DNA of 64,000 bases from Octopus vulgaris (lineage: Eukaryota), in the NCBI GenBank assembly GCA_951406725.2, contig OX597818.1, positions 76,570,001 through 76,634,000 of the forward strand. The letters are read 5' to 3'. The position numbers and the translations under genes were made by a program. Under the pieces are notes generated by a model, which saw only the letters and a program-made list of their open reading frames with translations, did no database searches and had not been told where the DNA came from. Of this stretch, positions 8,641 through 59,381 are shown in pieces (positions within the stretch are counted from its first letter, which is position 1; every line of letters starts with the position of its first letter).

Positions 8641-9310
8641 TAAAAGTAGATAACTGGTACAACAAGGCACCAATATTTACTGGAAAATAGCAATCGTAAT
8701 AAATACGACGCTATTGTATCACTTCACTGTGTATATACTAGCAAAGACGCGTGTGTGCAACAAACATGAAAAAAATTTGTCTTACCTCTAGGAAGAACAT
8801 CTGATAAATGGACAACCTAGAATCAGATAATGCAGGACCGGTTTCTGACTCTTCAAATATGTTTGACAACGTAAATTTGATTAGTCTTCATCAGCTGCAT
8901 TTACCTAGACAAAATTTCAAATGTTGCCACATCAATACCAGTATACTTGTCTGAACGGCAAAACGTTAACAGAACGAAAACAGTGAAGAAGTTTCAATGA
9001 AATTAATAATGCAATACAAATGTATTACTTTCCAGTAAAGGATAGCCCCATAAGGGTAAAATTATACGTATAAAAGTAGATAAATGGTACAATAAGGCAC
9101 CAATATTTACTAGAAAATAGCAATCATAATAAATACGACGCTATTGTATAGCTTCACTACGTATATACAAGCAAAGACGTGTGTGTGCAACAAACATGAA
9201 AAAAATTTGTCTTACCTCTAGGAAGAACATCTGATAAATGGACAACCTAGAATTGGATAATGCAGGACCGGTTTCTTTTACTGGAAAGTAATACATTCGT
9301 GTTGCATTAT
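8641..9310 (-). mobile_element. Hammerhead-bearing Penelope-pLTR/retrozyme-like element: 1.5-mer of a 430-bp unit with short terminal inversion, within (TA)n
   Basis: 8641-8846 is directly repeated at 9071-9276; 9277-9310 is an inverted copy of 9006-9039; (TA)n on both flanks; hammerhead motif inside. Confidence 0.75.
8829..8901 (-). ncRNA. Type I hammerhead ribozyme motif
   Basis: Minus strand AATGCAG-CTGATGA-A-GACT..TCAAAT..ATTTGA..AGTC-A-GAAAC-CG-GTC-CTGCATT: 7-bp stem I, intact core, palindromic stem III ACCGGT, GUC site; A.A mismatch at the base of stem II. Confidence 0.8.
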
Positions 9311-9570
9311 ATATATATATATATATATATATAGAAAGAGAGAGAGAAAGAGCAAGGGTGTGAGAGGTATTGGTACCGAGAAGACCCAAAGAGTGGCAGG
9401 TAACACCAAGTAAGTGCTATGGACACACCATAGTTAAACTTTTAGTTCAATAGTGGTACGAGTGAGGAGTCTAATGTGGGTCTTGTATTAGCATGCATAT
9501 ATATATATATATATATATATGTGCATGCTGTGAGTAGTTTTCAGGACATTTTTAAGGAAAAAGATATATA

Positions 9571-9618
9571 GTCTTACAGCTGTTTCTGGGATATTATGGA
9601 TATCTCTTCATCAGAGAC
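9571..9618 (-). ncRNA. Type I hammerhead ribozyme motif (left arm)
   Basis: GTCT-CTGATGA-AGAGATATCCATAATATCCCA-GAAAC-AGCT-GTA-AGAC; stem III palindrome ACAGCTGT; stem II partly eroded. Confidence 0.75.
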
Positions 9619-10171
9619 GATGTGAGATGGTTAAATAGAGGTAAGTATTTGAGTTTGAAATTAGGAATTATTATGGAAAAGGAGGAGATAGCAAATATAG
9701 AGGTGAAAGGAGAATGACAGTAGAAATAAAATATATAAAGATTGTAGTTGCAGTTCCATTATTCGAAGAAAGTGGTAAAAAAGTTTCCTGTACATGATAT
9801 GTAAGTTCCAATAGTAGTTTGTTTAGTCATTTCAAAGTATGGAGCCATGGATTCTGTGTTACTCATTCGAAAGGATCTTCACACCATAAGACCCTTTCGA
9901 ATGAGCAACCCAGAATCCACAGCTCCATACTTTGAAACGACCAAACATGAACTACTACTGGTACTAACATACCATGTACGGGAAACTTTTTTATCACTTC
10001 TGTACACCACTTTCTTCAAATAATGGAACTGAAACTACAATATCTCTATATATTTTATATTTCATTTCTACTTTCATTCTTATTTCCCTCTATATTCCCT
10101 ATCTCCTCCTTTTCCATAATAATTCCTTATTTCGAACTCAAATATTTACCTCTATTTAACCATCTCACATT

Positions 10172-10219
10172 GTCTTTGATGAAGCGATATCCATAATATT
10201 CCAGAAACAGCTGTAAGAC
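10172..10219 (+). ncRNA. Degenerate hammerhead motif (right arm)
   Basis: GTCT-TTGATGA-...-GAAAC-AGCT-GTA-AGAC; first core C mutated to T. Confidence 0.6.
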
Positions 10220-55361: not shown

Positions 55362-55710
55362 AAAAATATCAGAGATTCCCAAACATCAAAAGGGGTAGAT
55401 ACAAATGAGGGTGTGAGTTTAACTGCATTGAAGAAAGTTCGATTCCTGGAGATTCGATGAAAGGTCTTGAACTTACAGAATATGTGCATGTCCATATATA
55501 GTTCATAGTGAATTTCGCACGATTGTATCCAAAATTTCTTCACATAACTTGATTAACAATTCACTATGAACTATATATGGACATGCACATATTCTGTAAG
55601 TTCAAGACCTTTCATCGGATCTCCAGAAATCGAACTTTCTTCAATGCAGTTAAACTCACACCCTCATTTGTATCTACCCCTTTTGATGTTTGGGAATCTC
55701 TGATGTTTTT

Positions 55711-55795
55711 TCGGCTGACGAGTACGAGCCATCTGTATTTACTGCATTTTTTTGTAGCTTATTAAAGATGTCCTCGTACGAAACAATTGTACCGA
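55711..55795 (+). ncRNA. Type I hammerhead ribozyme, apparently intact
   Basis: TCGG-CTGACGA-GTACGAG...CTCGTAC-GAAAC-AATT-GTA-CCGA: complete core, 7-bp stem II, stem III palindrome ACAATTGT; predicted cut after 55791. Confidence 0.9.
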
Positions 55796-58700
55796 TATTT
55801 TAACCCATTCTTGTTGCTTTTTTCCTATATATATATATATATATATATATATATAAGCATGACCATGGGTGGTACAGGTTATTGCAAAGATGATGGATAT
55901 TCTTATAGGATTCTAGTGAGTTAGTTGCTAGATGTCAAAACTTTAATGTGTCAATGCCCAGAGGAGCAAAACATTCAAGATATAGTAACTGAGAGAGAGT
56001 ATTTTCTGGCTGCATATCTCTGGACAGCTTCTGAAAGATTGACAGTATGGACAAGATTGGGAGGCGGGGTCCAGACTAGAGATACAAACTGTATGATGGG
56101 TATGCTACAAAATGTGTATATGTATGTATGTACTTAGTGCAGTAGATGATGAAGAAATATACAGCATATCATTATGTATTAAGTCTCAGTGTGAAATCAG
56201 GTTCCATGAAAACTGTCAGCAGCTGCTGAAGATGAATGTCAAACTGATTGATTTCATTGTTAGACAGCTAACCATTCCAAGCTGCTAAAATGTTTGCCAT
56301 GAGGAACAGTTTCACAGCAACACTAAATACATATGGATATGATATGTGTATGCATGCATATGTGTGTTTGTGTATATTTTATCCACACTGTATTGGTTCT
56401 TTTGTAATTAATGCCAAGGGCCAACCCTGTACTGTTATGTACGTGAAGTTGTGTCAGACACAAGATTTGTTTATATTTCATTAAGCAACCTTCAGATACA
56501 ATTATTAACAGTCTAATGGAAGGTGCGTGAATTGTAACCAGTCCAATTTGATATTGCCCAAAATACACCAACAGGGACTTGATTTGCAGCAAAACTTTGT
56601 GTGTGTGTGTGTATATATATATATATATATAATCATCCTTTTAACATCCACTTTTCCATGCTCACATGGGTTGGGCAAAATTTTGTTAAGGCAGATTTTC
56701 TATGGCCAACTACTTTTCCTGTCACCATCCTTCACTTGTTTCTAACAAAAGTAATATTTTCCCATGGCCAGGCATGTTTTCACAGAAGATTGGAAATGGA
56801 GAACACTGTTTGCTTGACAATTACACTCATTTACAACTATTTTGTGTGGTCAACACAAGGAGACACTAAGACATTCACACATATATACAGGTGCACACAT
56901 GCACATATTTGTGTGTGTGTGTGCATGTGTATATATATATATATGGTGGCTGTCTGCTCATTGCAGTGCTTGACCTCTTTTAGTACCTATAATTGCTTTT
57001 TCCTCACATGAGATCTAAAATTACTTTTGAGCCCTGATGAGCTGATTACATATATTGCAGCAATGTCTCATTTCAGCATTTGCTCAATTTTCTGCTTGTT
57101 TATCATGAATGTTTCTGCTTCAATCCCTCATGTGACTAAATGCACACACATCTGTTCTACCAAATCCACTCACAAAACTTTTCTGATCTGCCTGGGACTT
57201 TAATAGAAGACATGTGCATAGGTGCAATGCATTGGAAGTCAATCTGAAACCAGGTGGTTGGGAAGTGTATGTGCTCACACACACACACACACAAAATCAT
57301 CATCATCATCATCATTTAACACCATTGTCCATATTGGCATGAGTTTGACAGTTTGACCAAGGCTAGCAAGCTGAGGGGCTGCACCAAACTCCAGTCTGAT
57401 TTGGCATGGTTTCTACAGGTGGATGCCCTCCTAACACCAACCACTCCAAGAGTGTAATGGGTGCTCTTGCATGCCACCTGCATGAGCCATGACTGTTTTT
57501 ACTTGGCTCGATGGGTCTTCTACTCAAAGACGGCATATTGTCAAAGGTTTCAGTCTCATGCTTGAAAGGTGCTTTTATGTGCCACCAGCATGTGTGTGTG
57601 TATATATATATATATATATATATATATATATATATATATATACACACACACATTATGCAAATATCTGCTTAGCTTTCCATGTGTCTCTATCTGTGCATTT
57701 ATCTATGTGTTTATGCCTATCTCTTTATTAATATTTCAATTCCCATATATGTTTAATACCATTAAGAAATACTTGAATAGAAAGACAGCTGTGACTAATT
57801 GATAAAATCTGACTCACCAACCTCTATCATTGTTTTTGATCTTCACATCTCCATTTACCCTTTCTCTTATACACCTCTTTTTACTCTTTCTATATTATCT
57901 CACTTCCCAAGTCCTAAACAAAATAATTTTACCACATCTTGTTCACCAAAACTGATACTATATTCTAGTACTTCTCACCTCTATTTGTTTTACCAACCAA
58001 TTTTGGCCTACTGATACTTATCCCTCTTGTTACCATATTTCTGTTAAAATTCACTGGTTTTGTTTCAAATAATTTAGAAAATTTTGAAGAATTTTGTCAA
58101 ATTACTTTGTCTTTATTAAACTGGTCTTTGTAAACTGAATTACTATGGAATTTTAATGAGAAGATTTTAATTACATCACATTAGAATGGGAATTTTGATC
58201 ATAGAACCAGGGGTGGTTTCAAGCGGGTTTGTATGAAAAAGGCTAAACAGATCAGTGATTTCATTAGTGTATTTGGAGTGGAATGGAGACTACAAAAGTA
58301 GATGACACTGTACCTTCTAATTTCATTAACATTTCTTTTTATTAAAATTAACTCTTTGCAAAGTTCTCAACTTCTATACATGTGACTCCTGGTGTCCACC
58401 AGTAGAACTTATCTGCAAGGTTGAGTTTTAGAACTAAAAACTGTTAATGTTTAAAGTGTTTATTTTTCTGCATCACTGATTGTTGTATTGCTGATTAGAT
58501 GCATTATAAGGACATTTGATATACATAATTAGTAGAGCATTGGTTAAAATGTCTTGTAGCTTTTGCTTACATCCATTTATATTTCTGTGTTCTTCAAAAT
58601 CTGTCCTTGTTGACTTTGCCTTTCATCCTTTCAAAAATCAAAATAAATTTTGATGTACAAGTATTCGATTTAATATAATCAATTGTAACTTGAAAGACTG

Positions 58701-59171
58701 TACCTCAGCATGGCCACAGTCCAGTGACTGAAGCAAGTGAAAATAAATATATATATGTATATATACAAGATGCAGCATATACATTTACCCATCATTTGAA
58801 CAATAATTTACCCACTATTCAAACCTAAATGGAAACATTCTTATTCACAAAATAATTTCAAATGTACACTAACACTAACATTCTTTTGTTTTATTGTTTA
58901 TCCTTAATTAAATATGGAAGCTCAAACAAAATGGGAACAAGTTATAACATTAAAAACAGCTGGTTTTGTAAGGTGATAAAATAGCTGAGGGAAGATTAAG
59001 GTCTATGGTAAAAGCAAAAGGTGACCACTTTGAATTGTAAATATATGTAAAATATTGTCAATAAATATAACAATCAACCTAAAATTTTTGATTTTATAAT
59101 AAAATGAGTAATGAATAAATATGTTTATCACACCTGGCACATGTGCATGTGTGTGTCATATATTTTTAAAA

Positions 59172-59381
59172 TTCTTATACAAGAATGTTATTAACAGTCA
59201 CTTCAAAATTTTGGCCAATTAAGCCATCATCAGACTGCAATGCATTAGAATTAGGTTTGCATTTATAAGGTCTCTGTTGAATTAAAATCATCTGACTCTA
59301 ATGTATCGCAGTCCAATGATGGCTTAACTGGCTGAAACTTTGAAGTCACTGTCAACAACATTCTTGTGTAAGAACAATAAA
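59172..59381. mobile_element. Old fold-back element with complementary-degenerate hammerhead motifs
   Basis: Arms 59172-59254 / 59292-59374; left (-) GCAGT-CTGATGA-TGGC..GGCC-AAAAT-TTTGAA-GTG-ACTGT; right (+) GCAGT-CCAATGA-TGGC..GGCT-GAAAC-TTTGAA-GTC-ACTGT; AATAAA follows. Confidence 0.7.

What the first reader, a model, noticed from the sequence alone, without database searches (positions are those of the whole stretch)
8641..59381. Five sequence-unrelated hammerhead-ribozyme retroelement families in 51 kb sharing one architecture
Seen: elements at 8641, 9527, 14169, 55127 and 59172 show no obvious similarity outside the core, yet all have type I topology CUGANGA-stem II-GAAAC-short stem III-GUH. 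Each stem III is a different palindrome or near-palindrome (ACCGGT, ACAGCTGT, ACCTAAGGT, ACAATTGT, ACTT[C/T]GAAGT). Four are head-to-head fold-backs with 3' ends pointing outward, and four sit in or beside (TA)n. Established: minimal type I hammerheads with palindromic stem III that cleave as dimers occur in Penelope-like element pLTRs and non-LTR retrozymes, and inverted pLTRs are typical of Penelope insertions. Inference: a diverse, (TA)n-associated, ribozyme-bearing non-autonomous retroelement system at about one copy per 13 kb of window, possibly undescribed in this lineage.
Basis: partly seen in the sequence, partly recalled or inferred. Interest (0 to 1): 0.9.

Follow-up and report, generated by a model that had tools for sequence, protein, structure and literature searches.

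The report
Hammerhead-bearing Penelope retrotransposon ends
The ribozyme-bearing hairpin insertions are real but are mostly broken tail ends of an already described group of Penelope-like jumping genes; one is a short protein-free repeat that seems to ride the same machinery, which supports a current idea about how animal 'retrozymes' spread.

Summary
The window copies at 14169 and 59172 are broken. Five families (B-F) are not a non-autonomous system. They are 5'-truncated ends of protein-coding Penelope-like elements (PLEs). Family D has full-length copies with a 1,091-aa RT/GIY-YIG frame carrying the Hydra-clade motifs of Craig et al. 2021. That paper already lists (TA)n targeting, these hammerheads and one octopus Hydra family. 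Fold-backs with a 'tail' on one arm are the known PLE footprint. Family A (8641) differs: a 430-nt ORF-less unit in head-to-tail, self-wrapping copies (retrozyme-like) with the same (TA)n, inversion and tail footprint. This points to dispersal in trans by PLE proteins. Blind samples give about one intact core per 34 kb and some 20 families, so the window is ordinary for this genome. Cleavage and expression are untested. The scan noted similar PLE fold-backs in other genomes. Verdict: new members of known kinds.

The parts
8641..9070 (-). Family A: one complete 430-nt retrozyme-like monomer; 3' end runs into (TA)n
   Evidence: folds with z = -6.0
8829..8901 (-). Family A type I hammerhead (stem I 7 bp, CTGATGA 8894-8888, stem III ACCGGT, predicted cleavage after 8836)
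   Evidence: box 1 intact in 23 of 27 arms scored
9071..9276 (-). Family A: 5'-truncated second monomer, joined head-to-tail without spacer; begins at the GAAAC box
9274..9310 (+). Family A: 37-nt inverted piece (monomer positions 29-65, the tail region)
8619..8642 (.). (TA)n tract at the 3' end of A; a second tract lies at 9308-9333
9527..10293 (.). Family B fold-back: left arm on minus, right arm on plus with an about 25-nt tail
9571..9618 (-). Family B hammerhead, left arm: boxes intact, one stem II mismatch, stem III ACAGCTGT
10172..10219 (+). Family B hammerhead, right arm: C3 changed (TTGATGA), stem II damaged
14160..14378 (.). Family C fold-back between two (TA)n tracts; both hammerheads broken in this copy; right arm carries the about 65-nt tail
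17434..17747 (-).
55127..55828 (.). Family D fold-back between (TA)n tracts; arms 97% identical; left arm carries the 120-nt tail (about 55127-55244)
55278..55361 (-). Family D hammerhead, left arm (CTGACGA, long stem II, stem III ACAATTGT)
55711..55795 (+). Family D hammerhead, right arm, intact
59165..59470 (.). Family E fold-back, old and CpG-decayed; cores at 59233-59199 (minus) and 59313-59347 (plus), both damaged; right arm carries the about 90-nt tail; family core CCGACGA

Best explanation
Families B-F are dead 5'-truncated insertions of five different Hydra-clade Penelope-like retrotransposons. Shown: a full element runs pLTR with hammerhead, tail, one ORF (RT, Cys linker, C-terminal GIY-YIG), 3' UTR, pLTR with hammerhead, (TA)n. 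Inferred from PLE biochemistry: the protein nicks both strands of a (TA)n tract and primes reverse transcription at two nearby RNA sites just past the pLTR. Two truncated cDNAs joined at their 5' ends give a head-to-head fold-back with the tail on one arm only; one cDNA gives a solo end. The hammerhead is simply the part nearest the RT start, so every short copy keeps it. Its palindromic stem III is kept for pairing of two ribozymes in tandem transcripts (inferred); in a fold-back copy it would be buried in a long duplex. Family A is a 430-nt ORF-less unit copied from a multimeric or circular RNA and inserted in trans by a (TA)n-targeting PLE protein, that is, a dispersed non-LTR retrozyme.
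For: Full-length D-subfamily copies L243 and L244: 1,091/1,090-aa frames with RWR, DKT, YRDD, CNCRIKSKC, CQLC..E and CIH; the 120-nt tail lies between the 5' pLTR and the ORF start, as in PMC11167929. L156: inverted arm + RT/EN frame + 3' arm. 9 of 150 scored RT matches sit in stop-free frames of 970 aa or more. F: the EN C-terminus ends 268-287 nt upstream of stem III in 6 of 25 loci. C: EN and thumb upstream in L165. E: L189 and L194 share 1.08 kb including the EN C-terminus. B: EN hit in L067 (iE 5e-5) and EN-like remnant in L169. Tail asymmetry in 10 of 10 distinct D fold-backs. (TA)n at the 3' end: A 20/28, B 24/28, C 21/36, D 36/37, E 9/31, F 10/28 arms against 7.8% of 6,800 background positions. 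Stem III changes on both sides between D and its subfamily (ACAATTGT to ACGATCGT, pLTR 89% identical) and lengthens symmetrically between A and A2. Without any palindrome filter 16 of 20 motif clusters are perfect palindromes, 4 have one mismatch. A: 12 of 25 insertions wrap from monomer end to monomer start, 10 of 25 have inversions; A2: 13 and 12 of 22. No shared non-unit sequence upstream. Monomers fold with z -6.0 and -4.7, a D pLTR of like length with -0.7.
Against: The ORF link rests on one or two loci for B, C and E, on decayed fragments, so the Hydra motif set is tested only for D. No tree with reference PLEs was built. D is about 4.7 kb, longer than the 'generally <3 kb' of Hydra. E and F end in (TA)n in only about a third of arms. 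Only the best-scoring 22-25 insertions per family were read, so an ORF-bearing parent of A may exist unseen. Within-family covariation is thin: one compensatory pair, in 3 of 13 distinct A2 rows. Single-motif folding is not better than shuffles for B, E, F and A2. No cleavage or RNA data.
Confidence: 0.85

Rival explanations
1. All families form one non-autonomous ribozyme retroposon system whose short fold-back form is itself the mobile unit.
For: Short fold-backs are common among top hits of C and E; family A is non-autonomous.
Against: Fold-back lengths vary freely (D arms 371-4,171 nt apart), upstream extents form a continuous truncation ladder, and long copies reach PLE ORFs. C and E queries were themselves fold-backs, which biases the hits. 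A fold-back transcript pairs the ribozyme with its own antisense (-492 kcal/mol).
Confidence: 0.06
2. Family A is only the pLTR of an autonomous PLE not yet found; its tandem copies are ordinary partial tandems or local duplications.
For: Only 47 insertions were read; a Neptune-like RT/EN lies near A or A2 in L044, L048, L201 and L207.
Against: That neighbour is separated from A by (TA)n and has its own 3' end. In A the tail is the start of the next monomer, not an ORF leader; L211 holds two whole and two part units without spacer.
Confidence: 0.2
3. The fold-backs are MITE-like DNA transposons or microRNA-type hairpins and the hammerhead match is incidental.
For: Inverted arms; weak Rfam microRNA matches below gathering score.
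Against: Solo arms, a one-sided tail, variable inner truncation, conserved core boxes, 0 motifs in shuffles and RT/EN linkage.
Confidence: 0.02

Closest known systems
Hydra clade of C-terminal EN+ Penelope-like elements (Craig et al. 2021, PMC8557442), including Hydra-1_Obim of Octopus bimaculoides
   Same: Single ORF with RW[K/R], DKT, CxCX5C linker, CxxC and CxH, no CCHH; type I hammerhead near the 3' end with an 8-9-nt palindromic stem III; (TA)n insertion; inverted 5'-truncated copy; N-terminus aligns by eye with Hydra-1_Obim.
   Different: None of A-F has the Hydra-1_Obim hammerhead sequence. D is about 4.7 kb because of Asn-rich inserts (1,091 against about 700 aa). Stem II is long in D, F, C; tails are 25-120 nt against 30-40. 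About 20 motif families were seen in under 1 Mb read, against one octopus Hydra family listed.
PLE minimal/type I hammerheads (Cervera and de la Pena 2014, PMC4209133)
   Same: Many families per genome, mostly solo motifs from truncated PLEs, pairs 100-700 bp apart on opposite strands, palindromic stem III, proposed dimer activity.
   Different: Here stem III is 6-10 nt, longer than the minimal form; family E carries a U4C core, which the parts read do not list.
Animal non-LTR retrozymes (Cervera and de la Pena 2020, PMC7229834; Li et al. 2026, bioRxiv 10.64898/2026.07.22.740005)
   Same: Family A/A2: short ORF-less self-paired unit, one type I hammerhead per unit, head-to-tail repeats, PLEs in the same genome.
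   Different: 430 nt, slightly above 170-400; mostly dispersed monomers and part-dimers, not long arrays; carries the PLE integration footprint (microsatellite target, 5' inversion, one-sided tail), which the parts read do not report for retrozymes. Circular RNA not shown.
Poseidon PAc of Anolis (Frangieh et al. 2024, PMC11167929)
   Same: Tail = RNA between two RT start sites at the pLTR-ORF junction; AT-rich target; both strands cut and extended.
   Different: Different clade; there the ORF starts inside the hammerhead, here about 57 nt after the tail.

Membership tests
Hydra-clade PLE (family D) | Single ORF, RT then C-terminal GIY-YIG endonuclease | tested here: met
   Pfam RVT_1 and GIY-YIG only weak, below cut-off
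Hydra-clade PLE (family D) | RWK motif and DKG changed to DKT | tested here: met
   RWR at 56 (conservative variant), DKT at 143
Hydra-clade PLE (family D) | CxCX5C linker; CxxC and CxH beside conserved E and N; no CCHH | tested here: met
   CNCRIKSKC, CQLCSME, CIH; absence of CCHH read from the EN sequence by eye
Hydra-clade PLE (family D) | Canonical hammerhead in the terminal repeat and insertion into (TA)n | tested here: met
   (36 of 37 arms)
Hydra-clade PLE (family D) | Generally shorter than 3 kb (descriptive, not diagnostic) | tested here: not met
   about 4.7 kb, Asn-rich inserts
Hydra-clade PLE (family D) | Placement in the Hydra clade of an RT tree | not tested
   reference proteins were read in the supplement but compared by eye only
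Hydra-clade PLE (families B, C, E, F) | Upstream ORF with the Hydra motif set | tested here: inconclusive
   EN/RT remnants match a profile of Hydra-like proteins P0001-P0008; too decayed or short for all motifs
PLE insertion footprint (all six) | 5' truncation, inverted copy, tail on one end | tested here: met
   clearest for D, C, A2; the short end is rare among B and A hits
Naiad/Chlamys PLE | N-terminal endonuclease, no canonical hammerhead | tested here: not met
   EN is C-terminal and a hammerhead is present
Neptune / Nematis / Poseidon PLE | CCHH motif in EN, DKG motif | tested here: not met
   family D has DKT and no CCHH
Non-LTR retrozyme (family A/A2) | Short head-to-tail unit with one type I hammerhead per unit | tested here: met
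   430-nt unit, wraps in 25 of 47 insertions
Non-LTR retrozyme (family A/A2) | No coding capacity or joined ORF | tested here: met
   none joined in 47 insertions read; not genome-wide
Non-LTR retrozyme (family A/A2) | Expressed as self-cleaved linear and circular RNA | not testable with these tools
   only assembled contigs of guessed RNA runs were available
Hammerhead ribozyme (activity) | Self-cleavage as monomer or dimer | not testable with these tools
   needs a bench assay
MITE | Fixed symmetric terminal inverted repeats and constant length | tested here: not met
   asymmetric ends, variable length, solo arms

The most novel reading that the evidence does not exclude
Family A/A2 is a recently mobile cephalopod non-LTR retrozyme whose dispersed copies (A2 91-99% identical) carry the full PLE integration signature, including the two-start-site tail, on an RNA with no ORF. 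That would be direct genomic evidence that animal retrozymes are reverse-transcribed and inserted by PLE proteins from multimeric or circular RNA, in a genome that also holds intact PLE ORFs to test as partner. The genome may also hold tens of thousands of hammerheads in dozens of families, some spreading with a U4C core.
Probability: 0.65. Interest if true: 0.5.

Novelty: new member of a known kind. Interest (0 to 1): 0.32.

Why it matters
As a whole the finding is ordinary PLE debris and should be annotated as such rather than as MITEs, microRNA hairpins or a new system. Two parts are useful. Family A offers a natural test of who mobilises animal retrozymes, for which the papers read give co-occurrence and pLTR phylogeny but no insertion footprint. 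Intact Hydra-type ORFs with matched pLTR, tail and (TA)n target give material for biochemistry of a clade so far described only by sequence in the papers read. The variety of stem III palindromes may let each family pair only with its own kind (inference).

Tried and rejected
Rfam scan: no hammerhead model among 150 listed matches. First regex scan was too strict for short stem III and found nothing. First took D for Naiad, then Nematis, from recalled motifs; rejected after reading PMC8557442 and the motif check. The Neptune-like RT in L109/L158 and EN in L044/L048 first looked linked to E and A; rejected, it is a separate element set off by (TA)n. The RT upstream of E in L185 and beside E in L157 seems to belong to other elements. 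B pairs 11 kb apart are a duplicated segment (L159/L160) or independent copies (L161/L162), not long elements. Expression: no holder on record as RNA; four runs laid were contigs only, with no start or end information, so no evidence either way. One pair count used a misregistered structure and was redone (corrected in 96). A cross-family DNA alignment was uninformative. Pfam does not detect the full-length ORF. Lunse et al. 2017 was not held and is known here only through a review. Dfam, Repbase and the O. vulgaris repeat library were not available, so prior annotation of these families as unnamed Penelope or SINE consensi cannot be excluded.
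Full report
Setting. The window is G000:C5:76570001-76634000 of a 2.80-Gb assembly in 227 contigs, 35% GC, rich in (TA)n. Size and composition suggest an octopus; this is my inference and was not tested.

Observation. A structural scan for type I cores finds four intact motifs (8894-, 17605-, 55357-, 55715+) and none in 100 and 50 dinucleotide shuffles. 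Rfam shows no hammerhead among 150 listed of 168 matches. All six elements are dispersed families: first-look candidates A 1,829, B 1,663, C 1,675, D 1,157, E 2,077, F 659, with 40 scored each. Top copies are 95-99% identical for D, about 90-97% for A and B, and about 70-85% over full length for C, E, F. The first core box is intact in 23 of 27 arms scored for A, 18 of 25 for B and 32 of 34 (any N7) for D. The window copies of C and E are broken and B is damaged. B-E are fold-backs and A-D touch (TA)n. No two of A-F align.

Link to proteins. [quoted passage not shown] An RT search gave 10,863 candidates; 9 of the 150 scored lie in stop-free frames of at least 970 aa. I fetched two of them (L243, L244). 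Both read pLTR with hammerhead, 120-nt tail, then a 1,091/1,090-aa frame; L243 ends in a second pLTR and (TA)n. The protein has RWR, DKT, CNCRIKSKC, CQLC..E and CIH and lacks CCHH, the definition of the Hydra clade (PMC8557442 section 11, read whole). It is 36% identical over 475 aa to an unnamed homolog with the same motifs. With a profile of eight such homologs, F has the EN C-terminus 268-287 nt upstream of stem III in 6 of 25 loci. C has thumb and EN upstream in L165. E has an EN C-terminus shared by L189 and L194, 2 of 25 loci found with an upstream query. B has a weak hit in L067 and a remnant in L169. So B-F are truncated ends of coding elements, firmly for D and F and on few loci for B, C, E.

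Footprint. Families have two 3' ends, short and tailed: D 45 or 165 nt past stem III, C 45-50 or 110, E about 45 or 135, F about 50 or 110, B about 65 (rare) or 90. All 10 distinct D fold-backs have one of each. The D tail is the sequence between the 5' pLTR and the ORF start, as found for Poseidon, where it lies between two RT start sites and both target strands are cut and extended (PMC11167929, parts 1-2 of 4 read). (TA)3+ follows the 3' end in A 20/28, B 24/28, C 21/36, D 36/37, E 9/31, F 10/28 arms; background 7.8% of 6,800 positions. Ten loci that repeated another locus's place were dropped before that count. These are top-scoring copies, not a random draw.

Ribozyme constraint. The D subfamily changes stem III on both sides (ACAATTGT to ACGATCGT). 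A2, 76% identical to A, has ACCTGCAGGT for ACCGGT. Within A2, 97.7% of cells pair and one stem II pair changes on both sides in 3 of 13 distinct rows, probably a single event. With no palindrome filter, 64 distinct motifs in the window and all 242 loci then held fall into 20 clusters: 16 perfect palindromes and 4 with one mismatch (one family may be split in two). Against function in place: a D fold-back transcript folds into one long duplex that buries the motif, and in PAc the ribozyme was not needed for insertion in vitro. Activity is untested here.

Family A. The 430-nt unit continues from its 3' end straight into its own start. 12 of 25 A insertions and 13 of 22 A2 insertions wrap this way; 10 and 12 have inversions; L211 holds two whole and two part units (three duplicate A2 loci dropped). 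The optional 3' extension is the first 61-78 nt of the next unit, typically on one arm of a fold-back. No ORF is joined in these 47 insertions; a Neptune-like neighbour in four loci is set off by (TA)n or lies apart. A and A2 monomers fold with z -6.0 and -4.7 against -0.7 for a D pLTR stretch. This fits non-LTR retrozymes (PMC7229834, passages), for which PLEs were proposed as partner, and a 2026 preprint deriving them from pLTRs by co-occurrence and phylogeny (parts 1-3 of 5 read, supplements closed). Which PLE moves A is open: Hydra, Naiad and the Neptune-like element all use (TA)n here or in print.

Family E core. Positions 4-5 read CA 18, TG 13, CG 7, other 8 of 46 arms, the same spectrum as two other CpG sites in E, so the ancestral core is CCGACGA. 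U4C is known from a viroid, lowers activity in vitro and is tolerated in vivo (PMC3088659, passages). A search for hammerhead + U4C + core + retrotransposon returned only that paper. Three unrelated flank motifs also have C4.

Density. In 336 kb of locus flanks the scan found 25 motifs (some the same place twice) against 0 in 10 shuffles. In 17 blind 10-kb stretches it found 5 motifs, none from A-F: one per 34 kb, Poisson range about 15-105 kb, or roughly 27,000-190,000 genome-wide. Four in 64 kb is within that. The window is not a special cluster; the genome holds many families.

What is in print. PMC4209133 (parts 1-2 of 4) describes many hammerhead families per genome, solo motifs from truncated PLEs and opposite-strand pairs 100-700 bp apart. 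PMC8557442 Files S1-S2 list Hydra families with (TA)n targets and palindromic stem III, including Hydra-1_Obim from Octopus bimaculoides, whose motif differs from A-F. An O. vulgaris repeat paper (PMC13282606, part 1 of 3 and term search) counts 31 recently active PLE families and never mentions hammerheads; PMC8967140 (passages) does not either. Searches for hammerhead + Octopus, Hydra clade, and retrozyme + cephalopod found no other account of these families. Repeat databases were not searchable, and unseen supplements may hold them. Two earlier notes of this scan reached the same reading for shark-type genomes; they are unchecked and not counted as support.

Verdict. Real and well explained: new families of the known Hydra PLE clade, plus one retrozyme-like family with a PLE footprint and one U4C-core family as modest additions. 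Confidence 0.85, interest 0.32.

Noticed in passing
L109:2460-2890 (G000:C27): Family A2, a younger sister of A (76% identical, 1,100 first-look candidates, top copies 91-99% alike) with the same wrap, tail and fold-back pattern.
   Followed up: yes
L157:3720-3600 (minus); L050; L239: A further family (G) with stem III ACCTAGGT ends a decayed Hydra-like RT; an inverted E arm is joined to the 5' side of that RT without a microsatellite, possibly a template switch between families.
   Followed up: partly
L158:8307-6486 (minus); L167:5616-7027; L044: A Neptune-like PLE (CxxC...C linker, GIY-YIG with conserved His) with (TA)n inside its 3' region and a minimal-hammerhead-like motif near its end; lies near A or A2 in four of 50 loci.
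   Followed up: partly
L243:1100-4372: The full-length D-type protein has two Asn-rich low-complexity inserts of about 150 and 200 aa between RT, thumb and endonuclease, absent from the about 700-aa homologs.
   Followed up: no
L172, L173, L169, L156:5500-5570: Another recurring fold-back family (H; short stem II, stem III ACAATTGT or ACGATTGT), often nested in or beside other PLE ends.
   Followed up: partly
L051, L090, L141 flanks: Three unrelated motifs with C at core position 4, so the U4C core is not limited to family E.
   Followed up: no
window 34383-34694 (minus): Tc1/mariner transposase fragment (Pfam HTH_Tnp_Tc3_2, E 5e-7, just below cut-off).
   Followed up: partly
window 51774-52827 (plus): Two frames that look like a decayed RTE-type LINE ORF by eye; no Pfam hit.
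   Followed up: partly
window 40570-41850: About 1.3 kb of (TA)/(TATG) microsatellite that dominates inverted-repeat and Rfam microRNA matches.
   Followed up: no
window 6553-6810; L159/L160: A short tandem repeat of about 60-66 nt period; a similar-looking unit forms a multi-kb array inside a duplicated segment in L159/L160.
   Followed up: no
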